The notes: generated from the letters alone by a model not told the origin. A stretch of 64,000 nt of DNA from Candidatus Aenigmatarchaeota archaeon (GCA_039000685.1 JAWBNW010000001.1:14655-78654), one strand, 5' to 3'; shown: positions 1 through 22,006, numbered from the stretch's first letter. Numbers and translations are program-made.

Positions 1-911
1 ATTCCTTCCTATCCCAAAATGAAAAAATCTTGGATAATTTAAGAAATGATTTGGAACAAATAGAAAAACAGATTAAAGAAAATGAAAGCAAGAAGAGGAA
101 GTATGAAATATTGTTGATACAGCTCGAAGATTTGGAAGAAAAGAAAAAAAGGAGTGAGGTGTTGAAGAGAGAAACAGAAGAAATCAAATCAAGAATGAAA
201 GAAATAGAAGCAAAACTTGAAGGCAAAGATTTGGCAAGAATGGAAGAAGCTCTCAAGTCAATCATAAGCAAAGAAAGTGAAGTAAAAACAAGGCTTCAAT
301 CTTACGATTCGTTCATTCAAGAAAAAGAATTAAGGAAAAGGGAATACGAGGAAAAGTTGAAAGATCTGGAAAAACAGAATAGAGAAGTCAAAAAACTAGA
401 GCATTTGATAAGAGATTTGGAGATTTTCAGTCTCGCCCTTCAGCAAACACAGATTGAACTGAGGAGCAATTTTGTCGAGGCAGTGAATTACACCATGAAC
501 AAGCTTTGGAGCACTCTATACCCATACCATGATTTCGTCTCTGTTAGGTTGAATGCAGAAGAAGGAGACTATGTTTTGCAGTTGCAAGGAAGGGATGGTA
601 ATTGGATGAATGTTGAAGGTATAGCTTCCGGTGGTGAAAGGAGCATAGCTTGCCTTGCTTTGAGAATAGCTTTTGCCCTCGTGCTCGCTCCAACCATGAG
701 AATAATCTTTTTGGACGAGCCAAGTCACAATTTGGATCAAGTCTCTCTAAAAGTCTTTGCAACAACTTTGAAAGAAAAAATCAGCGAGTTCATCGATCAG
801 GTTTTCTTGATAACACATCAATCGGAGCTAGAAGATGCTTTGACAGGCAATGGCTACCTATTAGAAAGAGATAAGGAAAAAGACGGTGTGACAAAGGTTG
901 TTGCCTTATAA
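1..911 (+). CDS. rad50: Rad50 (SMC-like DNA repair ATPase), C-terminal portion; 5' end lies outside the window. The frame is open back to nt 3, and the track start at 30 is only an internal TTG.
   Basis: Long K/E-rich coiled coil. ABC signature SGGER (ASGGERSIACLALRIAF). Walker B IIFLDEPSHNLD. H-loop LITHQSE near the C-terminus. This is the typical Rad50/SbcC C-terminal head domain. Confidence 0.8.
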   Translation, partial: SFLSQNEKILDNLRNDLEQIEKQIKENESKKRKYEILLIQLEDLEEKKKRSEVLKRETEEIKSRMKEIEAKLEGKDLARMEEALKSIISKESEVKTRLQSYDSFIQEKELRKREYEEKLKDLEKQNREVKKLEHLIRDLEIFSLALQQTQIELRSNFVEAVNYTMNKLWSTLYPYHDFVSVRLNAEEGDYVLQLQGRDGNWMNVEGIASGGERSIACLALRIAFALVLAPTMRIIFLDEPSHNLDQVSLKVFATTLKEKISEFIDQVFLITHQSELEDALTGNGYLLERDKEKDGVTKVVAL

Positions 912-912
912 A

Positions 913-1611
913 TCATCTGAACAATTTTTCAGTCGGGTAAACAATTATTCCTTTACCAGATTTTATTTCAAATGGGTGCGAATCTGTGTCATGGTCCGTT
1001 GCTCTCATCTTTCTTATGGTTATCCCTCTTGGATATCCAGAAGAATAAGATAGCAATATTATACCATCTGAAGTGAATTCTTCTATTCCAAAAGATGAAA
1101 TAGAGTTGGAGCCTTCTGGAATTTCACAAGTGAGCAGAGCAGTACAATTCAATTTTTTGAGCAGTTTATCCAACTCAAGCAAGCTTCTTCTGATCTCCAA
1201 AGGTCTCTCGAAGAAAAGGCTTATAACTGTTATTGGGTCAATGACTATCCTCTCTGCCCCAACTTTTTCAACATTGTTTTCAATCAAATTCTTGAACTTT
1301 TCAAAATCATAGATGTCTGACTTTATGAGGAGAAGCTTTCCTTCTTTCTCTAGTTTTTCCAAAGGCCAGCCAAAAGTCAGGTTTATATATTTTTTTATCC
1401 TCTCGACATTTTCTTCTAAAGATATATACACACCTTTCTCTTTCTTTTCCAAAACACCATTGACCAAAAACTGCAAAGAGAGTATAGTCTTGCCTGATCC
1501 AGGACTGCCAGAAACAAGAATTGTAGAACCTTTAGGAAAACCGCCTTTAAGCAAAGCATCTAAACCTTTTATGCCAGAAGGAGTTCTTTCTATGGCATCA
1601 ACTTCTTTCAT
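913..1611 (-). CDS. KaiC-like RecA-superfamily ATPase (single KaiC domain, about 230 aa)
   Basis: GIKGLDALLKGGFPKGSTILVSGSPGSGKTILSLQFL...GVYISLEE matches the KaiC/RadA-paralog N-terminal pattern. Walker A GSPGSGKT. Walker B-like RIVIDPIT. Confidence 0.65.
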   Translation of the reverse strand: MKEVDAIERTPSGIKGLDALLKGGFPKGSTILVSGSPGSGKTILSLQFLVNGVLEKKEKGVYISLEENVERIKKYINLTFGWPLEKLEKEGKLLLIKSDIYDFEKFKNLIENNVEKVGAERIVIDPITVISLFFERPLEIRRSLLELDKLLKKLNCTALLTCEIPEGSNSISSFGIEEFTSDGIILLSYSSGYPRGITIRKMRATDHDTDSHPFEIKSGKGIIVYPTEKLFR

Positions 1612-1646: not shown

Positions 1647-2234
1647 ATGGACAAATCGATAGAAACCATAAGAGGAGAGAAAACCCTCAAAGAATTTATT
1701 AAAAAACTCGAGCCAAAGAGTGTAGTTCTCTTTATCATCGATGCAAAGAAATACCATAAAATACATCCAAAACTTTTGCAGACCATAATAAAAGAAAAAT
1801 GTTTTGCAGGAATTTACATCACGATAAACAAGCCTTACAGTGCTTTGATCAAATACCTCAAAGAAAACAAAATAAACACGGATAACATATTTTTCATCGA
1901 TGCTATATCAAAGAGTGTTGGAGGGGAGATAAAAATGACAAAAGACTGTTTATTCATTCCTTCTCCCTCCCAACTAACTGATTTGGCAATAGCTTTAACT
2001 CAAGCTTTAGAAAGCATGGAACATAAGGAAAACAAATTCATTTTTCTCGATTCCCTTTCAACTTTATTAATCTATAACTCCTTTGAAGTTGCAGCCAAGT
2101 TCGTCCATTTCATAATCTCTAGGCTTAGACTGTTTGGTCTTGTCGGGATGATAATCTCAATAGAAAAACAAATAGATGAGAGAATGTTAAATATTTTAAT
2201 AGAGATGTGTGATAGGGTGGTTGAAGTCAAATGA
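1647..2234 (+). CDS. RecA/KaiC-fold-like protein lacking a P-loop (probably an inactive ATPase-like domain). It is divergently paired with the KaiC-like gene.
   Basis: Size and hydrophobic periodicity resemble KaiC/RecA-fold proteins. It has a hhhhD Walker B-like FIFLDSLSTLL. No GxxxxGK[ST] is present. The start is 35 nt from the divergent 913..1611 gene. Confidence 0.3.
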   Translation: MDKSIETIRGEKTLKEFIKKLEPKSVVLFIIDAKKYHKIHPKLLQTIIKEKCFAGIYITINKPYSALIKYLKENKINTDNIFFIDAISKSVGGEIKMTKDCLFIPSPSQLTDLAIALTQALESMEHKENKFIFLDSLSTLLIYNSFEVAAKFVHFIISRLRLFGLVGMIISIEKQIDERMLNILIEMCDRVVEVK

Positions 2235-2581
2235 TCGAAATCTTCTTTCAAATCTTAAGCTTGCTGAGCTCTGTTTTAGCTTTCATAACAGTAATTATGT
2301 TTGCTCGATCTAACATCAAGTTCACAAAAGGCGAATTGCAAGAAATAATCAATTATTTTGTTTGGGGAACTATATTCATGTTCGGTGCAATGGCGGCTCA
2401 ACTTCAAGTTGACCTCTTTAATTTGTCTGGCACACCAATAGATATGATAAAATATCTTCTATTGTTGATTGGTTTTTCATATTACTTATTAGCTTCCAAC
2501 CGAATTTACAAGATGTCAAAAGTCCTAGGGTTTGCTTCAGAAGAAATGCCAAAGAAACTGAAAAAAGTCCTTAAATCTTAA
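2231..2581 (+). CDS. Small polytopic membrane protein, start overlapping the upstream stop (ATGA)
   Basis: Three hydrophobic segments. Translationally coupled to the upstream gene. Confidence 0.4.
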   Translation: MIEIFFQILSLLSSVLAFITVIMFARSNIKFTKGELQEIINYFVWGTIFMFGAMAAQLQVDLFNLSGTPIDMIKYLLLLIGFSYYLLASNRIYKMSKVLGFASEEMPKKLKKVLKS

Positions 2582-2606
2582 TTTCAAGAAAAGTTTAATT
2601 TAAATT

Positions 2607-3017
2607 ATGAAGGCCCAAGTTGCTCTTGAATATTTAATGATAATTTCTTTTGCTTTGATGGTCTTGTTGCCTTACGCTCTTTATCTTCAAACAGCTTCCC
2701 AAAATTTAAAAGAAGACAACAATTTAGCCATAGCTTCCAATTCTCTGAAAAAAATAGGTCAGACAGCAGACTGGGTTTTTTCTCAAGGTGAGCCTGCCAA
2801 AATTACAATCTTGGTTCAAATTCCTGCTAACATTGAAGAAATTTCTTTTGACGGCAAAATGATGAACTGGAAAGTTAGGACTAGCGCTGGTCTATCAGAT
2901 ATTTACTACATTTCTTCGGCTAACTTGACAGGAAGCTTGCCAACAACTCCAGGCTATTACAATTTGCTGATTCAAGCTATCGGAAATGGGGTGAACATAA
3001 GTGTTAGCCCAAGTTAG
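2607..3017 (+). CDS. Archaeal type IV pilin-like protein (class III signal peptide)
   Basis: The N-terminus MKAQVALEYLMIISFALMVLLP has a short charged leader, Q/A, a conserved E, then a hydrophobic helix. Sequons follow (NLTGS). Confidence 0.55.
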   Translation: MKAQVALEYLMIISFALMVLLPYALYLQTASQNLKEDNNLAIASNSLKKIGQTADWVFSQGEPAKITILVQIPANIEEISFDGKMMNWKVRTSAGLSDIYYISSANLTGSLPTTPGYYNLLIQAIGNGVNISVSPS

Positions 3018-3390
3018 CATAGAATTTATTTCTTTGCTCTCATTCCTTTTCATTTTTTTATTCTTCACAATTTATCACAGTTCCAATCTTTACATTCAGA
3101 CAAACGCAGCAAGGATCTTGAAAGATGCACAAACAGTAAGCGATCAAATTGCTTCTGAAATAAACTTAGCCCTTAGAGCTGGGAGTGGCTACTCAAGAAC
3201 TTTCAATGTCCCAAATAAAATTTCCAATGCAATAGATTACAACATAACAGTAAAAGATTATCTTGTGATTTTGACTTGGAACGGTGGCTCCACACAATCT
3301 ATAATCTTGACAAGAAATATCAGTGGAGAAATATTGAAAGGTGAGAACTTGATAAGAAATTTGGATGGTGTGATTTATGCTAACCAATAA
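3001..3390 (+). CDS. Pilin-like protein (class III signal peptide-like N-terminus)
   Basis: MLAQVSIEFISLLSFLFIFLFF; overlaps the upstream gene by 17 nt. Confidence 0.45.
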   Translation: MLAQVSIEFISLLSFLFIFLFFTIYHSSNLYIQTNAARILKDAQTVSDQIASEINLALRAGSGYSRTFNVPNKISNAIDYNITVKDYLVILTWNGGSTQSIILTRNISGEILKGENLIRNLDGVIYANQ

Positions 3391-3859
3391 AGCCCAAGCC
3401 TTCACTTATGATTTTTTCATAGCTTTAGGTATTTTTTTTGTCGTGATGATTTTGGTGATGGGAAATTGGTACTTTTCAGCCGTTCAAACACAAGAAACCA
3501 TGGAAAAAAATTTAGCCTATAATATTCTACTTTCTGCATCTCAAGTTTGGTTTAAAGAAGGATTTCCAAAATATTGGAATGTTGACAATATAGTTGAGCT
3601 AGGTTTGTCCAATGACGGAAAGATAAATGAAACCAAAATGGAAATGCTGAACAATTCGATCGGATATCCCAAAGCAACTCTTTTGCTCAATCTTGGCAAT
3701 TTCAACTTGTGCTATGAAATTTATGACAAAACAGGAAATTTAATTTTTCGCTTTCCTCAAAATGCAGATCTTAATTCAGCAAAAAACATCTACAAGATTG
3801 AAAGAATTGGGATATTGAATGAGCAGCCTGTGAAAGTGAGGACTTTGATATGGAACTGA
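3377..3859 (+). CDS. Pilin-like protein
   Basis: MLTNKAQAFTYDFFIALGIFFVVMILV N-terminus; overlaps the upstream gene by 14 nt. Confidence 0.45.
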   Translation: MLTNKAQAFTYDFFIALGIFFVVMILVMGNWYFSAVQTQETMEKNLAYNILLSASQVWFKEGFPKYWNVDNIVELGLSNDGKINETKMEMLNNSIGYPKATLLLNLGNFNLCYEIYDKTGNLIFRFPQNADLNSAKNIYKIERIGILNEQPVKVRTLIWN

Positions 3860-5784
3860 AAGGTTTAGCTTTCACTGCTGACATTTTGATAGGTTTGACC
3901 TTAGCCATATCATTAATTCCTCTTTTCTATGTTGGAACAGAATCAAGCCATCCAGAAATTTCTTTTCAATCTTTAAGCTACCAAGCAAATGATTTGATAG
4001 AAGTGCTTGCAAATTTAAAAACAAGCTCTTTTTCCAACACACCAACAATCTCAAAACTCTTATCAGAGAAAATAATTTCAGAGACTGAACTGAACAAAAC
4101 TTTGCTAGACTTGATAGGAACTTTCTGGTATTCTGGTAATCAAAGCATCGCTTCAAATATAACAAAAGAAGTCCTGGAAGGTTTGACAGAAAAATGCTTC
4201 AGTCTCCAAACCCAGAATGAAACAATCTATTCATCTTGCTCATCTAATCCAAAAACAGTTTCTGTTGCTTACAGGTTGGAATCTGGCTATGAAATCGGAA
4301 AGCCGGTTTCTGGTTATGTGGCAAGGGCATGGGCAACAAAAGTGAGAAAAAACACAACCCAAATAATTATTTTCTATCCAGAAGGCTCAGGCTGGACTGC
4401 TCAAAGACTTGAAATCACGAAAAACTTTGCCTTACCAACAAACATAACAATCTACAACGCAACTTTGTATGTTTCAATCCATTTCGGAACTTCCAAATCC
4501 CAAGCCCAATTCGAGCAGCTTAAAATCAATGGTGTTCAAAAAAAGAATGATGTGAATTGGCTTTACTTGCAAGAAGAAGCTTTTGGTTGGGAAATTACTA
4601 CAGCAGCCTATGGTGTTGTTGACGTGACGAATGAAATTCAAGCAGGAAACAATTCAATTTACTTGGTGATAGGAACACCAAACTACCATTCTCACATTCA
4701 TCCAGGCATGAGGCTTATAGTGACTTACAGTTTGAGTCAAGAACTTTCAACAGGTAACAAAAGCTTCAAGAAGAGATATTATTTCGACAATGTGGTGGGG
4801 AGAACAGGTGCTTGGTCGATGGTCTCTTTCTATATCCCAGAAAATGCAAAAAATGCCACAGCTAGGCTTCATCTGAAAGCTTTAGAGGTCGATGATACTA
4901 AAGATTTGTTTGGAAGAAATTCCAGCGATGTGATAATTTATTTCAATTCAGACGACATCTTTTATAAAGACGGATATTGTTCTTCTCAAAATTGCTATCC
5001 TTCATGCAGTATTTCAGGTCTTTACTATAGAAACTGTCAAAAAGTTGGAGTGATGAATCCTGAGCTCTCATTAGATCTCACAAGCAATTTGACTAAAGGA
5101 ACAAATGTGATTTCAGTATATCTGAACAATTATGGTGACATTCACTGGGGAGATCAAAAGGCGATAATTTATTCAGATCTTTTGAATGACCCAGAAGGAT
5201 CTTCTTATGTTGAAGTCTCTTATGAAATGGAAGAACCAACTTTCAATTACGGTGAGATCGATATAACGAAAGAAATGTTGTTTGGAGGCTCTGCCAGCAA
5301 CCCAAAAACTTTCAATTTCACTCTAAGCCAAAATCAAATGAATGTTATAGAAGCTTTTGTCCACATAGCCCAGGGCTTCAGCAGCATGGTTAATGCTTCC
5401 ATAAACAACTTTTGGATCTTCACTTCACCTTCTATACGTGTCGTTCCTGAAAATGTTTATGTTTATCCAAACAAGCTCATCATCGGAACAAATTCAATCA
5501 AGCTTGTGGACTTTCAGCAAGGTGGCTCGATTTCAGGAACAAACTACATCTTGCCGTGGTCTTCTTTCGAATACACCTACCTCGTGAGAGGTTTGGTTGG
5601 CTATGGAAGTGTGTTCAATTCTTCTCAGCTTGCAATAGAAGATGCAAGACAAAGACTTCTTGCTCAAATGGGTGGCGAGGGAATAAAGCCGGAAGAGATG
5701 CAAGTCGACTCTCAAGCAGTTCAGGGCATAAGATGGCTTTGGGGTCCAAGCCTGTTCAAAATCTTGGTGTGGGAGAGAGAATGA
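3850..5784 (+). CDS. Large (644 aa) pilin-like or pilus-associated surface protein, a candidate tip adhesin
   Basis: N-terminus MELKGLAFTADILIGLTLAISLIP is a pilin-type hydrophobic helix. Many N-x-S/T sequons. Cys pairs sit in the middle. Overlaps the upstream gene by 10 nt. Confidence 0.45.
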   Translation: MELKGLAFTADILIGLTLAISLIPLFYVGTESSHPEISFQSLSYQANDLIEVLANLKTSSFSNTPTISKLLSEKIISETELNKTLLDLIGTFWYSGNQSIASNITKEVLEGLTEKCFSLQTQNETIYSSCSSNPKTVSVAYRLESGYEIGKPVSGYVARAWATKVRKNTTQIIIFYPEGSGWTAQRLEITKNFALPTNITIYNATLYVSIHFGTSKSQAQFEQLKINGVQKKNDVNWLYLQEEAFGWEITTAAYGVVDVTNEIQAGNNSIYLVIGTPNYHSHIHPGMRLIVTYSLSQELSTGNKSFKKRYYFDNVVGRTGAWSMVSFYIPENAKNATARLHLKALEVDDTKDLFGRNSSDVIIYFNSDDIFYKDGYCSSQNCYPSCSISGLYYRNCQKVGVMNPELSLDLTSNLTKGTNVISVYLNNYGDIHWGDQKAIIYSDLLNDPEGSSYVEVSYEMEEPTFNYGEIDITKEMLFGGSASNPKTFNFTLSQNQMNVIEAFVHIAQGFSSMVNASINNFWIFTSPSIRVVPENVYVYPNKLIIGTNSIKLVDFQQGGSISGTNYILPWSSFEYTYLVRGLVGYGSVFNSSQLAIEDARQRLLAQMGGEGIKPEEMQVDSQAVQGIRWLWGPSLFKILVWERE

Positions 5785-6746
5785 GAGGAATATTCTTCAG
5801 TTTGATGATAATTTTTCTAATGGCCTGCCTACTCATGTTTCTTTCTGTTCAGAGGTCCATGTTATCTTTTTACTCTTCTCAAAGAGCAATTGAAAATAGG
5901 ATAGAATCTATGCTGAACTTTTATGAGAGTGTGATTTATGACTCAAGAAAATCTATGGAAATCATGGCACAAAGGGCAGCTTGTTCAGCAATAAACTATG
6001 TGGTAACCACAGGCTCTCCCTTACATTCTTCAAACGAGTCTATAGCAGAGCTCATATTGGAAGGAACAATTAATTCTGAGATCCAAGGCCTGATGGAAGG
6101 ATCTACTACCAAAGATTGGGAAGAGAGCATAGAATATTTGGGAAGTCTTCAAGGATTTGGGGCCGAAGTCAATATCAAAGACTTATTGATAGAGCTCGAA
6201 GACAGTTACCATCTTTCCATCTCTTACACTATTCTCCTAGACCTTTATGATGATAATGTCAAGACAAACCTTACAAAAAGCTCAAGAGAAAAAATAATCG
6301 TAAGCATAGAAAATATGGAAGATCCTCTCTATCCTTTGAACACTTTAGGCAGAATAGTCAATGTCATAAGACCGAGCCCACATTGGCTCAACTACTCTAG
6401 CGAAGACACTACAAATTTGAAGGACGATTTAGACAATTCTTACTATCATCCCAGCTTATATGGAGCAAGTTTTCTGGATAGGCTTGAAGGCAAGTTCTTC
6501 GTTCAAGAAAAGTACTCCAAACCAAACCCAATCGGGTTGGAAAGTTTTGTCAACAAGGACAAAATCCTCAGCGCAGGCTTGCCGATAGATACTTACGCTA
6601 CAAACATAGATTATCTTTACTTCTCAAAAAGTGGTGTGGTCGCTTATTCTATTTTCAACATGCCTTCTAATTTTAGATTAGACAATGAGACTAGTCTTGA
6701 AGGGAAGACCCACCTTCAAATATACAATGTCACGGTGATTGAATGA
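5781..6746 (+). CDS. Membrane-anchored pilin-like or secreted protein (321 aa). The start at 5781 overlaps the upstream stop (ATGA).
   Basis: The track ORF 5556..6746 has an implausible N-terminal extension. The in-frame ATG at 5781 gives MRGIFFSLMIIFLMACLLMF, a signal-anchor helix, and overlaps the 3850..5784 stop. Confidence 0.4.
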   Translation: MRGIFFSLMIIFLMACLLMFLSVQRSMLSFYSSQRAIENRIESMLNFYESVIYDSRKSMEIMAQRAACSAINYVVTTGSPLHSSNESIAELILEGTINSEIQGLMEGSTTKDWEESIEYLGSLQGFGAEVNIKDLLIELEDSYHLSISYTILLDLYDDNVKTNLTKSSREKIIVSIENMEDPLYPLNTLGRIVNVIRPSPHWLNYSSEDTTNLKDDLDNSYYHPSLYGASFLDRLEGKFFVQEKYSKPNPIGLESFVNKDKILSAGLPIDTYATNIDYLYFSKSGVVAYSIFNMPSNFRLDNETSLEGKTHLQIYNVTVIE

Positions 6747-7480
6747 AATTAAAATACAAAATTTCACTCACAGCCCTGATGTTAATAATATTAGGTTCCC
6801 TAATCTTGGGTCCAAAAGAGTTTAAGCAAGCCCTTTTTCAATATTTTGAGGGAGGCAAAGGAGAAGAAAGCACTTCAGTTCAAAATTTAACTCAAAGTCA
6901 AACTGGTCAAACGAGCGAGACTAATTACTCTACAAACCCACCCCAAGAAGGTGGAGGAGGTGCTGGGGAAACAACCAAAGAAGAAGGACAAGCAGCAAAA
7001 GCAATAACCCTTGAAATCACAGACATTTGTTCAGGAAAGCTTGACCTATTCACCATTTCAGAAGGTGCTACTAAATGCTTGAACAGAAAATATCCGTATC
7101 AAATAATCCTTGAAAAAAATTCAACCCATTTGACAACAAGTTTTTATGGCTTAAGCGGGTTTGAGGAAAGCTATGAGCTGAACGAAACTATTCTACTATT
7201 CTTCATCTTTGCCGAGGATGTGGCGAGCGTGAGCCATGAGATTCAATCTTTCAGTTTAGAAGGAAGTCAAGATTTCAGTTTAGGTCAATATTATCTTCAC
7301 ACAATCTGGGAAAGAGATGCTGCTGGAAACTTGGTGATCTCAAAGATGATAGCAATTTTGCCTTTGCAAGTAAACGGCAATATTATGAGCAGTGATTGGA
7401 AAGAGCTTAAATTCTATCTGAATATACCTAACAAAACTTATTATTTGGGCAACCTTTGGGTCTTAGTGAAAGAAAAATAA
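6743..7480 (+). CDS. Secreted or membrane-anchored protein with a Q/T/G-rich linker, last gene of the plus-strand pilin-like operon
   Basis: N-terminal TM MKLKYKISLTALMLIILGSLILG. Low-complexity segment QSQTGQTSETNYSTNPPQEGGGGAGETT. ATGA overlap with the upstream gene. Confidence 0.4.
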   Translation: MKLKYKISLTALMLIILGSLILGPKEFKQALFQYFEGGKGEESTSVQNLTQSQTGQTSETNYSTNPPQEGGGGAGETTKEEGQAAKAITLEITDICSGKLDLFTISEGATKCLNRKYPYQIILEKNSTHLTTSFYGLSGFEESYELNETILLFFIFAEDVASVSHEIQSFSLEGSQDFSLGQYYLHTIWERDAAGNLVISKMIAILPLQVNGNIMSSDWKELKFYLNIPNKTYYLGNLWVLVKEK

Positions 7481-7491: not shown

Positions 7492-7902
7492 CTAAGACGC
7501 TCCATGTAAAGTTGCATTAAGACTGCTCTCTATACCGCTAGCAACATCTATGAAGGTTACTTTCACTTCTACATCTCCAGCAAAGCAACCACTGCAAGGT
7601 ATGGAAAGTCTTGATTGTGGTTTTCCATTTAGAGGTACATCAAAGGTGTTTGAACCTTTTGAAGTATCAACTCGTGTAACATTTATTTCTCTTGGTCCTA
7701 CAATCACTGAAAGGGTATTAGCACCATGATAGTCATACGTAATTGCTGCGCCAGGCGGGAAACATGGACTGCAAGGCCCACCGATACCACCACCAGGCAA
7801 TCTGAAAATACCCATTGCGTACAAAGCTGCAACCACTGCAATTACTATCAAGATTGCCCATCCGTATGTCATCAAAAACTCAAGAGCCGCTTGTGCTTTC
7901 AT
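7492..7902 (-). CDS. Archaeal type IV pilin (probable major pilin)
   Basis: MKAQAALEFLMTYGWAILIVIAVVAAL is a textbook archaeal pilin N-terminal domain (class III signal peptide). Short 136 aa protein with a Gly/Pro/Cys-rich tail. It has its own putative promoter. Confidence 0.65.
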   Translation of the reverse strand: MKAQAALEFLMTYGWAILIVIAVVAALYAMGIFRLPGGGIGGPCSPCFPPGAAITYDYHGANTLSVIVGPREINVTRVDTSKGSNTFDVPLNGKPQSRLSIPCSGCFAGDVEVKVTFIDVASGIESSLNATLHGAS

Positions 7903-7940
7903 AATTATATTTTATTTTCCCGCCTTTTAAAGCTATAGAG
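7903..7940 (-). promoter_or_regulatory. Putative archaeal BRE/TATA promoter for the major pilin gene
   Basis: Minus-strand sequence ...CTATAGCTTTAAAAGGCGGGAAAATAAAATATAATT-ATG. The TATA-like TTTAAAA sits about 25-30 nt upstream of the start, probably on a leaderless mRNA. Confidence 0.3.
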
Positions 7941-8928
7941 TTGCTGCTGGGACAAGGAAGCCTATGAGGCCTGAGAGAGCAAGTCTTGCCATGAAATAGA
8001 TTGTTAGGTTGATTGCCAAGAGCAAGGGGATGTATTTCAAACCAGCTTTTTCCTTTCCCTCTTGCAACAAACCTATGAGCAAGCTGCCAAAAATCGATGA
8101 AAAAATCAAGGTTAGCAGACAATAAGCTCTGATGAAATCTGAAGAAACTTTAACTATACCAAGCTTCAAGCTTCCCATGGTCATGTAGCTTGCAGCTTCT
8201 TCTATTCTCAGCTTGCTTCCGATTGCACTCATGGTCTCAACCAAATAGGAAGAAAACGCAAATAGGACAGGGGAGGCAAAACCAACGGCTATGAAGATGA
8301 AAATGGCATACATTCCAACTTGTGCTGCTATCTCTTTTTTCAAGAGCTTGAGATCCCTTATGTCTTCAGCTGTTTGTTCGAGCAAACTTGCTATCTCCCC
8401 ACCTTTTCTCATACCTTCAACTATCAAGTTGAATGTCCTGTTTATTATCCTCGACCTAATTTTCTTTCCTAAAGAAAGCAAAGCATCTTCCAAGGCTTCA
8501 CCAGCTATTGCTTTTGTGGCAGCCATCTTAATCTCTTTTTCCAAAACACCAAACTCCGGTCTAGCAGAATAAAGCAAAGCCTTGTCTGGAGTTAAACCTG
8601 AGCGAATGTTTGCTGCCATTAGCTGCAGGGCATCAGGAAGGACAGATTCAGCAAAGCTTCCTCTCTTATCACCTATCAATATTAAAATAAGATCAATTAT
8701 CAATTGAATTCCAATGAAAACCAGGGGAATCAATAGCAGGATTACCCAACTAAAAACAAAAACAAGGGGAAGCAACAAGAATGAAAAGGCAAGAGAGTAA
8801 AGAAAAGATAAGGACAAGAATTTTTCCATTCTTATCTCAATCCCAGCATACTCTAAATTCTGCTCTAACCATTTCACGTACTTCTTCGGATAAATCCACC
8901 TTATTCTTCTATAAGCTCTCTCTATCAT
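7933..8928 (-). CDS. FlaJ/TadC-like pilus platform membrane protein (second half of a split FlaJ)
   Basis: T2SS-F-like topology: TM pair, cytoplasmic helical domain, TM. Overlaps the upstream half by 4 nt. Confidence 0.6.
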   Translation of the reverse strand: MIERAYRRIRWIYPKKYVKWLEQNLEYAGIEIRMEKFLSLSFLYSLAFSFLLLPLVFVFSWVILLLIPLVFIGIQLIIDLILILIGDKRGSFAESVLPDALQLMAANIRSGLTPDKALLYSARPEFGVLEKEIKMAATKAIAGEALEDALLSLGKKIRSRIINRTFNLIVEGMRKGGEIASLLEQTAEDIRDLKLLKKEIAAQVGMYAIFIFIAVGFASPVLFAFSSYLVETMSAIGSKLRIEEAASYMTMGSLKLGIVKVSSDFIRAYCLLTLIFSSIFGSLLIGLLQEGKEKAGLKYIPLLLAINLTIYFMARLALSGLIGFLVPAATL

Positions 8929-9812
8929 ACTTCCACACTCGGCCTCCTGCTCTTAACCATTCCTATGAGCATGACTTGAAAAACAACAACAACAAACAAA
9001 ATCAAAAAGAATATTGTCTCTGGAACTTGTATGCCAGCAAAAGTAGAGAAAATTATGAGAAAAGTTATTCCAAGAGTAGGTAGAATTACTGTCAACATCA
9101 AGTACATTAGAGCTAGTGGACTGAGTTGAGAGCCATACTTCCTTATCTTCACCTTCTGCTCTTCTGAAAGATTTTGGGCTATGATGTTAAGAGTATTCCC
9201 AACATCACCCCCCGCCCTCAAGCTGTTGACTATCTGCCAAATAACCCTCTTGAAACCAACATTCGGAACCCTAAAAGCAAGCTCTTCCAGAGCTTGTGTC
9301 TCCTCTTTTCCAGTTGCTATTTCTTTCACACATTTCTCAAATTCTTCCGAGACAGAACCATAATTTCCTTTCGAGACAGAAACCAAGGAATCAAAAATAG
9401 AAACTCCGGACTTGATTTGAATGAACAAATGTCTTATGGCAAACAAAAGATTTTTTTCCACATCTCTATCTTTCCTTGAAAGCAAGAGGCTTGGATAAAA
9501 GCTGATGTAATTGAAGACAACTACAGAGATCAAAAGAGAAAAGATGAATGAAAGCAAGGCGAGATTTTTCCCGGCTACCAACCCAAGAATCGTGAAAATT
9601 GAGAAAATCAAGAAAAACCAAAAGATAGAAGAGAATATTGCTATTGCTGAATATTCCCTGTCTTTCAAGTTTATTTCAGCTTGAATCAACTTCTGGGCAA
9701 GGAAAGGATTCAGCTTGACAAGTCTGCTCGATAGAAATAAAAAAGGTCTTGAAAGTTTCAAAACCTTTTGAACTGGAAATGGGACAAATGGTATTCTCTT
9801 CATCCAAACCAA
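8925..9812 (-). CDS. FlaJ/TadB-like pilus platform membrane protein (first half)
   Basis: GspF/TadB-like cytoplasmic domain ...LFAIRHLFIQIKSGVSIFDSL...ALEELAFRVPN...IVNSLRAGGDVGNTL, flanked by TM helices. Confidence 0.6.
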   Translation of the reverse strand: MVWMKRIPFVPFPVQKVLKLSRPFLFLSSRLVKLNPFLAQKLIQAEINLKDREYSAIAIFSSIFWFFLIFSIFTILGLVAGKNLALLSFIFSLLISVVVFNYISFYPSLLLSRKDRDVEKNLLFAIRHLFIQIKSGVSIFDSLVSVSKGNYGSVSEEFEKCVKEIATGKEETQALEELAFRVPNVGFKRVIWQIVNSLRAGGDVGNTLNIIAQNLSEEQKVKIRKYGSQLSPLALMYLMLTVILPTLGITFLIIFSTFAGIQVPETIFFLILFVVVVFQVMLIGMVKSRRPSVEV

Positions 9813-11311
9813 CTTTTTATCACTTTATCCACATTTTCTCTGTTTTCAACAGCTTTGACCAATTTCTCAGGTGAAGAATAATAAATTGCTATGAGCCTTC
9901 CAAGCTTGTTCAAATCTTTAACTTGATTTTCAACAAACCACTTCAATATCCCCACTTTTTCATCCATATTTTCTTTGATCTCCTGTTCAGTCATACCTGT
10001 GTGCATACCAATCTCTTCCACAATTCTCAAGCTATCATTCTCCCTCTCAATTTCATCTTTCACAGGCTTCCATCTGTACAAAGTGTTTAACTGTGGGCCT
10101 TGTTTCTCACTTCCTGGCAAAATTTCGCTCAGTTGGAACATCCTCCTTATCCCAAGCCTTCTATCCCTGAAAGCAACTGCAAGGAGATGTAAAGCTTCTA
10201 TCACACTTTCAGGCACGTTGATTGGCGGATTTATTAATCTTTTCAAGGCTTGTTCTGCTGTATCAGCATGCAAGGTAGCATAAACTGAATGGCCAGTGTG
10301 CATGGCTTCAAAAAGGACTTCTGCCTCTCTTGCTCTTCTTATCTCACCAACTATTATCCTGTCAGGTCTCATCCTCAAGCTGTTAACGAGCAAGCTGAGC
10401 ATGCTAACTTCTCCCAAACCTTCAGGATTTGGTTCCCTTGTTGTCAAAGGCACCCAATGCAGAAAATCAGCCAACTGTAATTCACGCGTGTCTTCAATAG
10501 AAACTACTCTTTGGTTTGGTGGAATGAAGCTCATGAAGACATTCAGCAAAGAAGTTTTTCCGCTTGCTGTACCACCAGCGACAATCATGTTCATCTCGTA
10601 CTGAATAGCAAGCCAAATTAAAGCAGCTACTTCATAATTCAAAGTTTTGTTTTCTATGAAATCTACTATCGTCCAAGGCGACCTTCTGAATTTTCTTATT
10701 GTTATTGTATTTCCATGAGTTGAAATGGGGAACAAAGTTGCATTAACTCTGTCTCCAGTCGGCAAGTGAGCATCCATGAGTGGGTTGAGAAGCGTGATTT
10801 GTCTGCCAACTTTTCTCCCTATATTATTGGCATAGTTCAATATCTCGCTTTCTTGCTCGATTTGTACATTGGTCTTGAGCCAACCATGCTTCTTGTGATA
10901 AACCCAAACCGGTTCTTTAGAGCTGTTGATGACGACTTCTTCCAGGTTTGGGTCTGCAAGCAAGAACTCAATCTTTCCCAATCCAAACATCTCTTGCATC
11001 AAAATCCCGATCAAATACTTTTGAGTACTCTCATTCACGAAAGGCATCTCTTTCTTGAAAATTTCCATCCCCTTTTCAAAGAATTTTCTCTTCAAATTTT
11101 CTATTGAAGTTACATCCATGAGTTCAGTTGGCTTGATTGGAATTTCGGTCAAGAGCATTGTCCTGATTTTTTCCAGAAGGACAGAAGTACCTGCAGCTAT
11201 TTCTGGAAGTTTGAGCTCATAGATGAGAACAAAATCAGAAGTTTTTTTTATTGAGACGGAAGCTTCTATGCCTTCAGAACTAACTTTATAGCTTTCAGAC
11301 TTTTCATTCAT
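9800..11311 (-). CDS. FlaI/PilB/VirB11-family secretion ATPase (archaeal pilus assembly ATPase)
   Basis: Walker A MIVAGGTASGKTSLLN. Asp box and Walker B ...RVVSIEDTRELQL. His box AMHTGHSVYATLHAD. About 500 aa. Confidence 0.8.
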   Translation of the reverse strand: MNEKSESYKVSSEGIEASVSIKKTSDFVLIYELKLPEIAAGTSVLLEKIRTMLLTEIPIKPTELMDVTSIENLKRKFFEKGMEIFKKEMPFVNESTQKYLIGILMQEMFGLGKIEFLLADPNLEEVVINSSKEPVWVYHKKHGWLKTNVQIEQESEILNYANNIGRKVGRQITLLNPLMDAHLPTGDRVNATLFPISTHGNTITIRKFRRSPWTIVDFIENKTLNYEVAALIWLAIQYEMNMIVAGGTASGKTSLLNVFMSFIPPNQRVVSIEDTRELQLADFLHWVPLTTREPNPEGLGEVSMLSLLVNSLRMRPDRIIVGEIRRAREAEVLFEAMHTGHSVYATLHADTAEQALKRLINPPINVPESVIEALHLLAVAFRDRRLGIRRMFQLSEILPGSEKQGPQLNTLYRWKPVKDEIERENDSLRIVEEIGMHTGMTEQEIKENMDEKVGILKWFVENQVKDLNKLGRLIAIYYSSPEKLVKAVENRENVDKVIKSWFG

Positions 11312-11339: not shown

Positions 11340-12113
11340 TCATTCTTGTTTTTTCATTTTCACAACAGGGCTTCCGATAGCAGGATAATTTATTTCAACT
11401 ATGCCATGCTCTTCAAGAATTTTTGCCCAATTTTCAACCAAATTCTCTGGAGTGTTCAAAAGTTTGGAAAGTTTTTGGAGTTCAACCGGACCTTCTTCCA
11501 AGATTTTCAACATTTCATCAATTTTTGTTGAGACAGTTTCCTTTATCTCTTGCTTTGGAGCCCATTTCAGCAAATCGGTTCTTGTTATTATTCCAACAAG
11601 CCTACCTTTTTTATCAAGGACAAGAAGCCTTTTGATGTTGTATTTTTCCATTTTCTTTTTTGCTTCTTCCACACTTTTATCTTCACCGATGCAAATCGGT
11701 TTTTTCATGATGTCAGCAACTATCGTGTTTTTGAGAACCTCTTTATCCTTTTCTTCTATTTCTTCCAAATTATTCTTCTTAACAATCTTCAAGATGTCAG
11801 TCTTGCTTATCTCACCTATGAAAAATCCTTTATCGAGAACAGGAGCACCAGAAATTTTTTTATTTTGGAAAATTTCGGCGACTTTATTCAAGCCCATATG
11901 GGGGTCGACAGAGATTATGTTTTTCGTCATCAACTCTGAAACCAAAATCTTTTTCTTCTCAGGCTTCACCTTTCTTTTAATTTTCACCATTCTTTTAATC
12001 TTTTTTGTTCTCTTTTTCACCTTCTTCTCAACTTTTATTTTTTTGGTCTTTATTTTTCTCTTGAAAAAACTGAAGAGCCAGTCTAGCACCATAATTATTA
12101 TCTGAAAAATCAA
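11340..12113 (-). CDS. Membrane-anchored CBS-pair domain protein with a poly-lysine linker and a C-terminal wHTH-like tail
   Basis: N-terminal TM. Linker KRKIKTKKIKVEKKVKKRTKKIKRMVKIKRKVKPEKKK. Two CBS motifs (LMTKNIISV...GAPVLD; IMKKPICIG...LLVLDKKGRLVGIITRTDLL). Helical C-terminus. Confidence 0.55.
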   Translation of the reverse strand: MIFQIIIMVLDWLFSFFKRKIKTKKIKVEKKVKKRTKKIKRMVKIKRKVKPEKKKILVSELMTKNIISVDPHMGLNKVAEIFQNKKISGAPVLDKGFFIGEISKTDILKIVKKNNLEEIEEKDKEVLKNTIVADIMKKPICIGEDKSVEEAKKKMEKYNIKRLLVLDKKGRLVGIITRTDLLKWAPKQEIKETVSTKIDEMLKILEEGPVELQKLSKLLNTPENLVENWAKILEEHGIVEINYPAIGSPVVKMKKQE

Positions 12114-21931: not shown

Positions 21932-22006
21932 TGCCCCCGAGGGGATTTGAACCCCCAACCAACGGCTTAGGAAGCCGCTGCTCTATCCAAGTTGAGCTAC
22001 GAGGGC
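21932..22006 (-). tRNA. tRNA-Arg (anticodon CCT)
   Basis: Minus strand reads GCCCTCG-TA-GCTC-AACTTGGATA-GAGC-A-GCGGC-TTCCTAA-GCCGT-TGGTT-GGGGG-TTCAAAT-CCCCT-CGGGGGC-A. A full cloverleaf folds by hand, with U33, anticodon CCU and A37. CCA is not encoded. Confidence 0.8.

What the first reader, a model, noticed from the sequence alone, without database searches (positions are those of the whole stretch)
2231..7480. Seven-gene, translationally coupled operon of pilin-like proteins including 644-aa and 321-aa pilin-anchored giants
Six consecutive gene junctions overlap (ATGA or 10-17 nt overlaps), implying one transcript with stoichiometric coupling. Four products start with class III (type IV pilin) signal-peptide-like helices. 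Two are far larger than structural pilins (644 and 321 aa), rich in sequons and Cys pairs, like tip adhesins or minor pilins. The last product has a Q/T/G-rich linker. In an apparently reduced-genome archaeon this looks like a dedicated attachment apparatus. It could be a host-attachment organelle if the organism is an episymbiont, which is my inference. The large pilin-anchored proteins have no motif I can place in a known family.
Basis: partly seen in the sequence, partly recalled or inferred. Interest (0 to 1): 0.65.

Follow-up and report, generated by a model that had tools for sequence, protein, structure and literature searches.

The report
Minor-pilin tip operon of DPANN pilus
These genes encode the accessory ("minor") pilins of a complete type IV (Tad/Epd-like) pilus locus in a tiny DPANN archaeon, including a large lectin-like adhesin built on a pilin anchor; the proteins are unannotated, but the machine is a well-known kind of attachment device.

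Summary
The ORFs are real and conserved. The organism is a Candidatus Aenigmatarchaeota (DPANN) MAG: two products are 100% identical to NCBI proteins QXU74_00100 and QXU74_00105.

The finding covers half of a complete type IV filament locus. Directly adjacent on the minus strand are a 136-aa major-pilin candidate, two T2SSF platform genes, a FlaI/GspE2/CpaF-type ATPase and a CBS protein. A KaiC gene and a degenerate KaiC-like gene lie upstream.

The core is five consecutive pilin-like genes (136, 129, 160, 644 and 321 aa). Their prepilin-type N-termini are conserved in 53 DPANN species genomes, in the same order.

- The first two carry Glu5.
- The third and fourth carry Asp/Glu6.
- The 321-aa product has no acidic residue, is larger than the major pilin and is encoded last, which is the bacterial GspK-type tip-cap signature.
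- The 644-aa product is a modular pilin with three β-sandwich (lectin-like) domains. Relatives carry VWA or LamG modules at the same cassette position.

Best reading: a translationally coupled tip and priming complex that displays an adhesin.

Corrections: five of six junctions overlap, not six. Five products have class III-like N-termini, not four. The 116-aa and 245-aa products are not pilins.

Host attachment remains inference. Novelty: a new member of a known kind.

The parts
913..1611 (-). KaiC-family ATPase (232 aa) with an intact Walker A motif (GSPGSGKT). Likely regulator of the pilus locus, transcribed divergently from 1647.
   Evidence: Pfam KaiC 9.7e-64. NCBIfam KaiC_arch_3 1.2e-42 and ArlH 5e-11, below cutoff. 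Syntenic in Aenigmatarchaeota loci.
1647..2234 (+). Degenerate KaiC/FlaH-like protein (195 aa) with no Walker A motif. Its stop overlaps the start of the 116-aa gene (ATGA).
   Evidence: Pfam DUF7504 1.8e-9, DUF835 3e-7, KaiC 3.5e-4. Junction -4. Absent from close relatives L002 and L015, where kaiC directly abuts the pilin cassette.
2231..2581 (+). 116-aa hydrophobic membrane protein. Not a pilin; coupled to the KaiC-like gene rather than to the pilin genes.
   Evidence: No family hit. No class III motif in any of 9 orthologues. Found only in Aenigmatarchaeota relatives.
2571..2584 (+). TATA-like AT box (TTAAATCTTAATTT) 23-36 nt upstream of the 2607 ATG, with no SD motif. Inferred promoter of a leaderless pilin operon.
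   Evidence: Sequence. The element is conserved in L001, L003 and L018 and is similar in L002, L010, L017, L020 and L025. No GGTGA lies upstream, unlike the internal genes. Inference only.
2607..3017 (+). Minor pilin-like protein 1 (136 aa): MKA|QVALEY, with Glu5.
   Evidence: [KR][AGST]|Q...E5 in 32 of 34 orthologues. hhalign to the next gene 97.9% over 114 columns, and to the N-terminus of the major pilin 95.9%. Weak Pfam Class_IIIsignal hit, 0.14.
3001..3390 (+). Minor pilin-like protein 2 (129 aa), a paralogue of protein 1: MLA|QVSIEF, with Glu5. Lys at -2 has been lost in this lineage.
   Evidence: Orthologues read MKGQVSLEF or KAQVAFEF; Glu5 in 16 of 16. 17-nt overlap with the upstream gene. 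GGGGTGA SD-like motif.
3377..3859 (+). Minor pilin-like protein 3 (160 aa): NKA|QAFTYDF, with Asp/Glu6. Homologous to the N-terminal module of the 644-aa protein.
   Evidence: Asp/Glu6 in 28 of 29 orthologues. hhalign to residues 1-144 of the 644-aa family 82.5% over 136 columns. NCBIfam ComGE minor pilin 3.8e-5, N-terminus only and below cutoff.
3850..5784 (+). Modular pilin and putative tip adhesin (644 aa). Order of parts: class III-like leader LKG|LAFTAD (Asp6), membrane helix, helical module (35-109), three β-sandwich domains (about 116-590), then a C-terminal helix with a hairpin.
   Evidence: AF2 pLDDT 88.7. Foldseek PDB hits to jelly-roll / galactose-binding-like accessory domains of glycosidases and to BcsB (2.8e-8; low TM because the model is multi-domain). 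[KR]G|...D6 in 44 of 45 orthologues. 15 sequons against 7.6 expected. Variants carry VWA or LamG modules, at the same cassette position. DUF3344 in 3 of 40 relatives.
5781..6746 (+). Large terminal pilin-like protein (321 aa): MRG|IFFSL, with no acidic residue in mature positions 1-8. Candidate tip cap (GspK-type signature). The fold of its C-terminal domain has no PDB match.
   Evidence: AF2 pLDDT 94.4: helix 2-77, three long strands 127-175, then an α/β domain. No acidic residue in any of 37 orthologues. No Foldseek PDB hit below E=0.01. No Pfam, NCBIfam or PDB sequence hit. Directly downstream of the 644-aa homologue in 43 of 44 loci. 100% identical to NCBI QXU74_00100.
6743..7480 (+). 245-aa protein: N-terminal membrane anchor (no class III motif), Q/T/G-rich linker, and a C-terminal domain of about 150 aa. 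Aenigmatarchaeota-specific accessory protein of unknown role.
   Evidence: 30 homologues, all Aenigmatarchaeota-type, with no Pfam domain. No class III motif in any of 16 orthologues. ATGA overlap and GGTGAT SD motif. Analogous anchored ORFs sit at this position in L023 and L029.
7492..7902 (-). Candidate major pilin (136 aa): MKA|QAALEFLMTYGWAILIV, with Glu5. Convergent with the cassette.
   Evidence: Glu5 in 22 of 22 orthologues and the N-terminus is almost invariant across DPANN. Present in 2-3 tandem copies in Woesearchaeota loci. No PDB sequence relative.
7923..7929 (-). Consensus archaeal TATA box TTTAAAA (minus strand), 21-27 nt upstream of the major-pilin ATG. Inferred separate promoter for the major pilin.
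   Evidence: Sequence. gcTTTAAAAgg is conserved in L001, L002, L004 and L006. Inference.
7933..8928 (-). Platform protein 2 (TadC/FlaJ-like, 331 aa).
   Evidence: Pfam T2SSF 1.1e-14.
8925..9812 (-). Platform protein 1 (TadB/FlaJ-like, 295 aa).
   Evidence: Pfam T2SSF 7.5e-20. ATGA-type overlap with the neighbouring gene.
9800..11311 (-). Type IV filament assembly ATPase (503 aa).
   Evidence: Pfam T2SSE 3.3e-34 and PilB3_C 8.7e-5. Nearest solved structures: A. fulgidus GspE2 2oap 6.4e-73, FlaI 1.5e-55, CpaF 1.7e-51.
11340..12113 (-). CBS-pair protein (257 aa) at the head of the ATPase operon. Syntenic accessory or regulatory gene.
   Evidence: Pfam CBS 4.4e-31. Found next to the ATPase in most Aenigmatarchaeota loci.

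Best explanation
The region is the minor-pilin (tip and priming complex) operon of a complete archaeal type IV filament locus with two platform genes, i.e. Tad/Epd-like.

SHOWN.
- Five consecutive genes at 2607-6746 encode proteins with prepilin-type N-termini.
- They are translationally coupled.
- They keep the same order across DPANN phyla.
- They sit beside the ATPase, two platform genes and a separately promoted 136-aa major-pilin candidate.

INFERRED MECHANISM.
1. Each precursor is inserted into the membrane and its short M-x-[KR]-[GA] leader is removed by an archaeal prepilin peptidase encoded elsewhere in the genome.
2. The five mature subunits are made in roughly equal amounts from one coupled transcript. 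They assemble on the platform into a short quasi-helical complex that primes polymerisation of the major pilin, so the complex ends up at the pilus tip.
3. The 321-aa subunit is placed at the very top as the cap. It has no acidic residue to pair with the N-terminus of a subunit above it, it is 2.4 times the size of the major pilin, and it is encoded last.
4. The 644-aa subunit is a modular pilin. Its pilin-like N-terminal module is homologous to the 160-aa pilin. It carries three glycosylated β-sandwich, lectin-like domains that act as the adhesin.
5. In other lineages the same position carries VWA or LamG heads, so binding specificity is exchanged by swapping modules.

The KaiC, KaiC-like and CBS proteins probably regulate assembly. 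The 116-aa and 245-aa membrane proteins are lineage-specific accessories. The likely target is a surface or a host cell. That last point is inference.
For: Locus context: T2SSE ATPase, two T2SSF genes, KaiC and CBS.

N-terminal motifs conserved in orthologues from 53 genomes: Glu5 in 32/34, 16/16 and 22/22; Asp/Glu6 in 28/29 and 44/45; none in 0/37.

Paralogy: protein 1 to protein 2, 97.9%; protein 1 to the major-pilin N-terminus, 95.9%; the 160-aa protein to the N-terminal module of the 644-aa protein, 82.5%.

Coupling: five overlaps of 4-17 nt and SD-like GGTGA only before internal genes. The major pilin has a separate TTTAAAA box.

Synteny: 321-aa homologue downstream in 43/44 loci; small pilin upstream in 35/43; ATPase within 10 kb in 29/35. 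Taxa: Aenigmatarchaeota, Woesearchaeota, Nanohaloarchaea and Nanoarchaeota.

Structure: the 644-aa model (pLDDT 88.7) has an N-terminal helix, a helical module and β-sandwich arrays that match carbohydrate-binding-type accessory domains and phage tail or receptor-binding-type β-sandwich proteins. The 321-aa model (pLDDT 94.4) has a long N-terminal helix packed on a three-stranded sheet.

Modularity: VWA and LamG variants occupy the same cassette slot (also the 1241-aa variant in L053).

Established knowledge:
- Modular pilins with lectin or vWA modules form tip adhesins (PMC9934059).
- Tad pili carry exchangeable minor-pilin tips (PMC12075869).
- Archaeal clade-1/system-1 loci have two TadC-like genes, at least five minor pilins and large adhesins (PMC4858521; 10.64898/2026.04.22.720090).
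Against: - No prepilin peptidase is in the 64-kb window. Only a sub-threshold A24 hit lies beside a related Nanohaloarchaea locus.
- No Pfam, NCBIfam or PDB hit ties any of the five proteins to a named pilin family. The exceptions are a 0.14 Class_IIIsignal hit and a sub-cutoff ComGE hit.
- Foldseek did not return GspK or any pilin for the 321-aa model, so its pilin fold rests on secondary-structure pattern only.
- The 129-aa product in this genome lacks the basic residue at -2.
- The acidic residue at +6 rather than +5 in two subunits has no tested precedent here.
- Tip location, stoichiometry, glycan binding and host attachment were not tested. No multimer model could be made.
Confidence: 0.7

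Rival explanations
1. A short pseudopilus rather than a long adhesive pilus. The five pilin-like proteins and the machinery would form a T2SS-, bindosome- or Com-like piston or stalk. It would display the β-sandwich protein at the envelope for substrate or DNA capture and uptake, which would suit a genome-reduced scavenger.
For: The components are the same as in the main model. Archaeal TFF machineries functionalised with class III binding proteins are proposed in 10.64898/2026.04.22.720090. DNA import through DPANN pili has been hypothesised (PMC9563170). The lectin-like domains could bind soluble or polymeric substrates.
Against: A separately promoted, highly conserved major pilin gene, present in 2-3 copies in Woesearchaeota, argues for a polymerised filament. 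No ABC transporter, ComEC or nuclease gene was found in the locus. VWA and LamG heads are typical adhesin modules.
Confidence: 0.15
2. The two large proteins are ordinary envelope proteins (S-layer-like or surface lectins) held in the membrane by an uncleaved N-terminal anchor. On this view they are only co-located with the pilus genes. The 321-aa protein could be a bitopic assembly or alignment factor, like PilN/PilO or VirB8, rather than a pilin.
For: Foldseek's best (non-significant) hits for the 321-aa model are NTF2-like and VirB8-like α+β domains. Any bitopic protein has basic residues before its membrane helix. Makarova et al. leave open 'adhesin or S-layer protein' for large secreted proteins in archaeal T4P loci (PMC4858521). 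There is a weak SlpA_N hit at 0.074.
Against: A Gly or Ala immediately after the basic residue is conserved (KG|, and KAQ| in one clade), as in the bona fide pilins of the same loci. The N-terminal module of the 644-aa protein is homologous to the 160-aa pilin-like protein. Start/stop overlaps with the small pilins and near-invariant gene order across phyla point to one complex. Asp6 inside the hydrophobic segment is conserved in 44 of 45 orthologues, which is unusual for a simple anchor.
Confidence: 0.12
3. The ORFs are not a functional unit: overlapping ORFs arising by chance in AT-rich DNA, or a strain-specific island.
For: The window is 34-39% GC, where long ORFs arise more easily. None of the seven products has a curated family hit.
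Against: There are hundreds of homologues at 27-91% identity. Gene order is conserved in 53 species genomes from several DPANN phyla. The AF2 models are high-confidence.
Confidence: 0.01

Closest known systems
Bacterial minor-pilin tip and priming complex (GspH-I-J-K / FimU-PilVWX, with the GspK-type cap)
   Same: A cluster of four or five co-transcribed minor pilins sits beside the machinery. All but one carry the conserved acidic residue near the mature N-terminus. The exception is the largest 'plain' subunit and is encoded at the 3' end. This is exactly the signature listed in PMC5207764, and it is observed here.
   Different: There is no sequence or Foldseek similarity to GspK, to Pfam T2SSK or to any HIJK subunit. 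The acidic residue is at +6 in two subunits. Archaeal prepilin leaders end in [KR][GA] and there is no outer-membrane secretin. Tip location was not demonstrated.
Modular pilins of Streptococcus sanguinis T4P (PilB with a vWA module, PilC with Ig plus a ConA-like lectin module; PMC9934059)
   Same: The architecture matches: class III signal peptide, short pilin module, then grafted adhesive β-sandwich or vWA modules. Here the 644-aa protein has three β-sandwich domains, and family members carry VWA or LamG/ConA-like modules.
   Different: There is no detectable sequence homology. This is an archaeal Tad/Epd-like machine rather than a monoderm T4aP. The N-terminal module of about 350 aa is much larger. 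Ligand binding is untested.
Tad pilus pseudopilins TadE/TadF/TadG and the exchangeable 'Tips' of the Myxococcus Kil Tad pilus (PMC12075869)
   Same: The platform is split into two genes and the ATPase is CpaF/TadA-like. A large variable minor pilin is proposed to recognise the target cell. Head domains vary between lineages. The ecological logic also matches: a cell that lives on other cells.
   Different: No Pfam TadE or Tad-like domain was found. The major pilin here is 136 aa with a globular part, not a roughly 50-70-aa Flp. Only one cassette is seen in this window; a possible second copy in the MAG was not resolved.
Archaeal TFF clade 1 / 'system 1' (Epd pilus of Methanococcus maripaludis; Makarova 2016 PMC4858521; Sivabalasarma & Albers 2026, 10.64898/2026.04.22.720090)
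   Same: The locus has an ATPase, two TadC-like platform genes, at least five class III minor pilin-like genes and large predicted adhesins. [quoted passage not shown]
   Different: No DUF2341 adhesin domain, no EppA peptidase in the locus and no roughly 70-aa arCOG06620-type major pilin were found. The KaiC and CBS association resembles what those papers describe for subclade 4B. The ATPase clade was not determined phylogenetically.
DPANN type IV pilus loci with 'dark matter' signal-peptide proteins (Makarova et al. 2019, PMC6393860, Fig. 2A; Nanohaloarchaeota Tad clusters with kaiC and no annotated pilins, PMC9563170)
   Same: Same kind of locus in the same superphylum: recognisable ATPase and TadB/TadC, with unannotated neighbours predicted to be 'diverse pilins'.
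   Different: Those papers give only a general prediction. Resolved here are the five-gene order, the Glu5 / Asp6 / none pattern, the paralogy relations, the modular adhesin with swappable heads and the cap-like terminal subunit.

Membership tests
Type IV pilin-like proteins (class III signal peptide proteins) | A short basic leader ending in [KR][GA], followed by about 20 hydrophobic residues at the extreme N-terminus. | tested here: met
   The motif is present and conserved in orthologues of the 136, 160, 644 and 321-aa products and of the 136-aa major-pilin candidate. The 129-aa product has it in relatives but reads M-L-A|Q in this genome. The 116-aa and 245-aa products lack it. The FlaFind-style pattern was written from memory.
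Type IV pilin-like proteins (class III signal peptide proteins) | Leader cleavage by an A24-family prepilin peptidase (PibD/FlaK/EppA). | not testable with these tools
   No A24 peptidase was found among the window ORFs scanned or by a GxGD motif search. There is a sub-threshold Peptidase_A24 hit (20.3 bits against a cutoff of 26.5) beside the related locus L049. The rest of the MAG is not available.
Type IV pilin-like proteins (class III signal peptide proteins) | Pilin fold: a long N-terminal α-helix packed against an antiparallel β-sheet. | tested here: inconclusive
Type IV pilin-like proteins (class III signal peptide proteins) | Genomic linkage to a type IV filament ATPase and platform protein. 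| tested here: met
   T2SSE and two T2SSF genes lie at 7933-11311. The linkage is retained in 29 of 35 testable related loci.
GspK-type tip-cap minor pilin | [quoted passage not shown] | tested here: met
   321 aa against 136 aa. No acidic residue in mature positions 1-8 in any of 37 orthologues. It is the last of the five class III-type genes.
GspK-type tip-cap minor pilin | Homology to GspK (Pfam T2SSK, or the GspK fold with an α-domain inserted in the pilin sheet). | tested here: not met
   No Pfam or NCBIfam hit. The PDB profile search found nothing. GspK is not among the Foldseek PDB hits, whose best E-value is 0.012 to NTF2-like folds. It therefore works like a GspK-type cap, by inference, but is not a family member.
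Archaeal TFF clade 1 / system 1 (Epd-like) | Platform protein split into two TadB/TadC-like genes next to the ATPase. | tested here: met
   T2SSF domains in the 295-aa and 331-aa products.
Archaeal TFF clade 1 / system 1 (Epd-like) | ATPase belongs to clade 1 of the archaeal secretion-ATPase tree. | not tested
   Only nearest PDB relatives were obtained: GspE2 ahead of FlaI ahead of CpaF. No phylogeny with reference arCOG sequences could be built.
Archaeal TFF clade 1 / system 1 (Epd-like) | Large DUF2341 (PilY-like) adhesins, a dedicated EppA peptidase and short (about 70 aa) arCOG06620-type major pilins (PMC4858521). | tested here: not met
   No DUF2341 hit in the 644-aa protein or in 40 relatives. 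No peptidase in the locus. The candidate major pilin is 136 aa.
Modular pilins (pilin module plus grafted adhesive module) | A class III N-terminus followed by one or more independently folding, non-pilin domains of adhesin type. | tested here: met
   The 644-aa model has three β-sandwich domains after the N-terminal module. They match carbohydrate-binding-type accessory domains. Relatives carry VWA_2 or Laminin_G_3 modules in the same gene slot.
Modular pilins (pilin module plus grafted adhesive module) | Demonstrated ligand (glycan or protein) binding. | not testable with these tools
   Requires recombinant protein and glycan arrays or cell-binding assays.
Bacterial Tad pseudopilins (TadE/TadF/TadG) | TadE-like N-terminal domain (Pfam TadE / Tad families). 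| tested here: not met
   No such Pfam hit at E<=1 for any cassette product.
DUF3344 (PF11824) surface proteins | Pfam match above the gathering threshold. | tested here: not met
   The window protein has no hit. Only 3 of 40 aligned relatives match, best 1.7e-7, so any relationship is distant.

The most novel reading that the evidence does not exclude
The five-gene cassette is a DPANN-wide, vertically inherited pilus tip module and serves as the host-recognition device of these episymbiotic archaea. The parts would be two Glu5 pilins, an Asp6 pilin, an Asp6 modular pilin whose head is swapped between lineages (β-sandwich lectin-like, VWA or LamG), and a cap pilin whose conserved C-terminal domain has a fold with no solved relative. 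This would be an independent archaeal counterpart of the bacterial HIJK+PilY1 complex and of the Tad 'adaptable tip' system. The 644-aa head would set host range, and the 321-aa cap would carry a so far unknown activity.
Probability: 0.35. Interest if true: 0.6.

Novelty: new member of a known kind. Interest (0 to 1): 0.35.

Why it matters
How DPANN archaea find and hold on to their hosts is largely unknown. Published genome surveys of DPANN pilus loci report that no pilins were annotated, or give only a generic 'diverse pilins' label (PMC9563170, PMC6393860).

This analysis turns seven 'hypothetical proteins' into a specific, testable parts list:
- which five are pilin-like;
- which one is the likely cap;
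- which one is the likely adhesin, and that its head is exchanged (VWA or LamG) between lineages;
- which neighbouring gene is the major pilin.

That gives concrete targets for cryo-ET, glycan-array, metatranscriptomic and co-culture work in the DPANN groups that can be cultivated, since the cassette also occurs in Nanohaloarchaea and Nanoarchaeota relatives. It also offers a sequence signature for annotation: the N-terminal motifs plus the YHSHxHPG motif of the adhesin family.

It does not reveal a new kind of machine. The logic is that of known bacterial and archaeal type IV filaments.

Tried and rejected
- Pfam and NCBIfam on all cassette products gave no significant family. Sub-cutoff hits were not used as evidence of membership: Class_IIIsignal 0.14, ComGE 3.8e-5, Bac_rhamnosid_N 0.03, SlpA_N 0.074.
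- PDB sequence-profile searches with the 644-aa and 321-aa family alignments found nothing meaningful. The major pilin had no PDB relative.
- Foldseek PDB for the 321-aa model gave no hit below E=0.01. The idea that it is a structural GspK homologue was dropped.
- Foldseek against viral structures for the 644-aa model gave only generic β-sandwich, tail-fibre-type hits with low TM scores. This is not evidence of a viral origin.
- The search for a prepilin peptidase in the window found none. It used Pfam on about 45 ORFs and a GxGD motif scan.
- Retrieval of the second, 72%-identical copy of the 321-aa and 245-aa genes from the same MAG failed: not on record.
- The enzyme reading of the 644-aa protein was considered because Foldseek hits are glycosidases. 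It was rejected because the alignments are to their accessory β-sandwich domains, with TM 0.1-0.2, and there is no catalytic-domain Pfam hit. A conserved His cluster (H211, H282, H284) could be a metal site, but this could not be examined without coordinates.
- The sigma-70 promoter and terminator scan was not used, because it does not apply to archaea. TATA- and SD-like elements were read by eye and are marked as inference.

Full report
WHAT IS THERE

They are only part of the unit. Pfam places a complete type IV filament machine immediately downstream on the opposite strand:
- a 136-aa pilin (7492-7902), MKA|QAALEFLMTYGW;
- two T2SSF platform genes (7933-8928 and 8925-9812);
- a T2SSE ATPase (9800-11311);
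- a CBS-pair protein (11340-12113).

Upstream lie a KaiC ATPase (913-1611, minus strand; 9.7e-64) and a degenerate, Walker-A-less KaiC-like gene (1647-2234; DUF7504/DUF835). The ATPase's nearest solved relatives are A. fulgidus GspE2 (6.4e-73), FlaI and the Tad ATPase CpaF.

The organism is a Candidatus Aenigmatarchaeota MAG. The 321-aa and 245-aa products are 100% identical to NCBI QXU74_00100 and QXU74_00105 on an 81.9-kb contig.

CHECKING THE OBSERVATION

Junctions:
- 1647-gene to 116-aa gene: -4 (ATGA).
- 116-aa to 136-aa: +25 nt spacer.
- 136 to 129: -17.
- 129 to 160: -14.
- 160 to 644: -10.
- 644 to 321: -4.
- 321 to 245: -4.

So five of the six junctions inside the stated interval overlap, not six. 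The sixth overlap joins the first gene to an upstream eighth gene.

SD-like GGTGA or GGAG motifs precede every internal gene. The genes at 1647 and 2607 instead have AT-rich TATA-like boxes about 25-35 nt upstream and no SD motif. In the close relatives L002 and L015, the KaiC-like and 116-aa genes are missing and kaiC abuts the first pilin gene directly. I therefore infer two transcription units, 1647-2581 and 2607-7480. The major pilin has its own consensus TTTAAAA box 21-27 nt upstream.

Sequon enrichment holds for the 644-aa protein (15 against 7.6 expected). Its six Cys are spaced as plausible pairs. The 321-aa protein has only two Cys, one of them in the membrane helix.

PREPILIN-TYPE N-TERMINI

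I collected orthologues from 53 species-representative genomes and compared N-termini. Five consecutive products, plus the major-pilin candidate, share a short leader ending in [KR][GAST] followed by a hydrophobic helix. Each has a characteristic position for its acidic residue:

| Product | Leader and mature N-terminus | Acidic residue | Count |
|---|---|---|---|
| 136 aa | KA\|Q..xE | Glu5 | 32/34 |
| 129 aa | (K/R)(G/A/S)\|Q..xE; in this genome M-L-A\|Q | Glu5 | 16/16 |
| 160 aa | K(A/G/S)\|Q....D/E | position 6 | 28/29 |
| 644 aa | (K/R)G\|..F(T/S)xD | position 6 | 44/45 |
| 321 aa | (K/R)G\|IFFS | none in positions 1-8 | 0/37 |
| major pilin | KAQAALEF | Glu5 | 22/22 |

The 116-aa and 245-aa products lack the motif in all orthologues.

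Profile-profile comparison shows three relationships:
- The 136-aa and 129-aa proteins are full-length paralogues (97.9%).
- The 136-aa protein shares its N-terminus with the major pilin (95.9%).
- The 160-aa protein is related to residues 1-144 of the 644-aa family (82.5%).

The 321-aa family is not detectably related to the others.

CONSERVATION

The 644-aa family has 109 close hits, and 1092 cluster representatives at E<=1e-3 with a profile. The 321-aa family has 161 hits. The 245-aa family has only 30, all Aenigmatarchaeota-type.

In the 53 loci the order small pilin, small pilin, 160-type, 644-type, 321-type recurs in Aenigmatarchaeota, Woesearchaeota, Nanohaloarchaea and Nanoarchaeota records. 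Counts:
- The 321-type gene lies directly downstream of the 644-type gene in 43 of 44 testable loci.
- A small pilin is detectable upstream in 35 of 43.
- The ATPase lies within 10 kb in 29 of 35.

The machinery can sit on either side and in either orientation. The pilin cassette therefore behaves as a module.

STRUCTURES

The 644-aa model is confident (pLDDT 88.7). It has an N-terminal helix 4-27, a helical module 35-109, three β-sandwich domains at about 116-590, and a terminal helix plus hairpin. Foldseek against PDB returns the accessory jelly-roll / galactose-binding-like domains of β-galactosidases and rhamnosidases and the carbohydrate-binding domains of BcsB (best 2.8e-8). Global TM scores are low, as expected for a multi-domain query. 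Viral hits are generic tail-fibre-type β-sandwich proteins. No catalytic domain is detected. Three of 40 relatives touch DUF3344, a domain of predicted surface and fibrillar-adhesin proteins (PMC9210967).

Longer family members keep the N-terminal module of about 350 residues and add VWA or LamG/ConA-like modules. The 898-aa VWA variant sits in the same slot of the same cassette, in the order 133-127-156-898-281-405-CBS-ATPase-T2SSF-T2SSF-pilin. So does a 1241-aa variant in L053.

The 321-aa model is very confident (pLDDT 94.4). It has a 76-residue N-terminal helix, three long β-strands and a highly conserved α/β C-terminal domain. It has no PDB match by Foldseek (best E 0.012, to NTF2-like folds) and none by sequence profile.

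INTERPRETATION

The anatomy matches the logic of type IV filament minor-pilin tip complexes.

In bacterial T2SS and T4P, four or five minor pilins are co-transcribed. All but one keep Glu5. The exception is larger than the major pilin, is encoded at the 3' end of the cluster, and forms the first (tip) subunit (PMC5207764). The 321-aa product fits all three criteria.

Pilins that carry grafted lectin or vWA modules ('modular pilins') form tip adhesins in Streptococcus sanguinis (PMC9934059). Tad pili of Myxococcus use exchangeable minor-pilin tips to recognise target cells (PMC12075869). The 644-aa family has the same architecture and the same kinds of head.

Coupled translation fits a stoichiometric complex. 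The separately promoted major pilin fits a polymer subunit.

I therefore read 2607-6746 as a priming and tip complex that displays a lectin-like adhesin. KaiC, the KaiC-like protein and the CBS protein would be regulators; KaiC association with archaeal T4P loci is documented in PMC4858521. The 116-aa and 245-aa membrane proteins would be lineage-specific accessories.

The steps that are shown: gene content, N-terminal motifs, paralogy, coupling, synteny and domain architecture. The steps that are inferred: leader cleavage, tip position, cap role, glycan or host binding, and promoters.

RIVALS

- A short pseudopilus or uptake device is not excluded. It is less likely given the conserved, sometimes multi-copy major pilin and the absence of transporter or ComEC genes nearby.
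- The large proteins could be plain envelope proteins, or the 321-aa protein a bitopic assembly factor. This is weakened by the conserved Gly/Ala after the basic residue, the conserved Asp6 within the hydrophobic segment, the homology of the 644-aa N-terminal module to the 160-aa pilin, and the invariant coupling.
- Chance ORFs are excluded.

COMPARISON WITH THE KNOWN

Archaeal T4P loci with two TadC-like genes, at least five minor pilins and large adhesins are described as clade 1 / system 1 and are reported in DPANN (PMC4858521; 10.64898/2026.04.22.720090). DPANN loci with unannotated signal-peptide proteins were already predicted to encode 'diverse pilins' (PMC6393860). Nanohaloarchaeota Tad clusters with kaiC but no annotated pilins are on record (PMC9563170). 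The kind of system is therefore known.

Strict membership in system 1 is not established. DUF2341 adhesins, an in-locus EppA peptidase and short Flp-like major pilins are all absent, and the ATPase clade was not determined. None of the five proteins belongs to a named pilin family by sequence.

What this analysis adds is the resolved five-gene module, its Glu5 / Asp6 / none pattern, the modular adhesin with swappable heads, and a cap-like subunit of unplaced fold.

VERDICT

This is a real, conserved and correctly sensed feature. It is a new, unannotated member of a known kind of machine. It is of moderate interest, mainly as a concrete handle on DPANN attachment. Host attachment itself remains untested.

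Noticed in passing
window 31914-36164 (+) and 50913-54005 (-): Isoleucyl-tRNA synthetase (1416 aa) and acetyl-CoA synthetase (1030 aa) each carry an intein with a LAGLIDADG homing-endonuclease domain (Intein_splicing plus LAGLIDADG_3).
   Followed up: partly
window 50403-50900 (+), 49714-50328 (-), 61694-62560 (-): There are two free-standing LAGLIDADG ORFs. One lies next to a truncated isocitrate/isopropylmalate dehydrogenase fragment that matches only profile positions 98-291 of 348. The other also has a Zn-finger hit and is wedged between the PheRS β (60079-61731) and α (62571-63854) genes.
   Followed up: no
window 18138-21020 (-): A 960-aa ORF has no Pfam hit even at E<=0.01. It is a large uncharacterised protein next to a DJ-1/PfpI gene and a tRNA (21932-22006, minus strand).
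   Followed up: partly
window 24335-26134 (-): A 599-aa fusion protein combines a PIN domain, a PilT/T2SSE-like ATPase domain and a KH domain. It is a second secretion-ATPase-superfamily protein in the window and is unrelated to the pilus locus.
   Followed up: no
window 30-911 (+), 12127-13653 (-), 13844-14596 (+): The pilus locus sits between DNA-repair-type genes: a Rad50/SMC C-terminal part on one side, and HerA plus an Mre11-like phosphoesterase on the other. The Rad50-side adjacency is kept in relatives L001 and L007.
   Followed up: partly
P0116 (QXU74_03490) and P0380 (QXU74_03485), 6.7-kb contig of the same MAG: The same MAG carries a second copy of the 321-aa gene (72% identical) and of the 245-aa gene (60% identical). 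This is either a second tip cassette in one genome or strain mixture in the bin. The contig could not be retrieved.
   Followed up: partly
L023 14075-21977 (+): In one Aenigmatarchaeota relative, a protein of more than 2600 aa with weak filamin/Ig-like repeat hits (all below Pfam's gathering cut-off) lies directly downstream of the cassette. It is possibly a further surface adhesin.
   Followed up: partly
L050 12937-14716, L052 12884-14611, L049 17530-19354: Woesearchaeota-type loci have an extra pilin gene after the 321-aa homologue. They have a winged-helix plus coiled-coil protein ahead of the ATPase where this genome has a CBS protein. The Nanohaloarchaea locus L049 has a weak Peptidase_A24 candidate next to the machinery.
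   Followed up: partly
window 3850-5784, residues 211 and 279-288 of the product: His211 and the motif YHSHIHPGMR (H282, H284, P285 and G286 are nearly invariant in 40 relatives) lie within the first β-sandwich region of the 644-aa protein. This may be a metal-binding site. It could not be examined without model coordinates.
   Followed up: no
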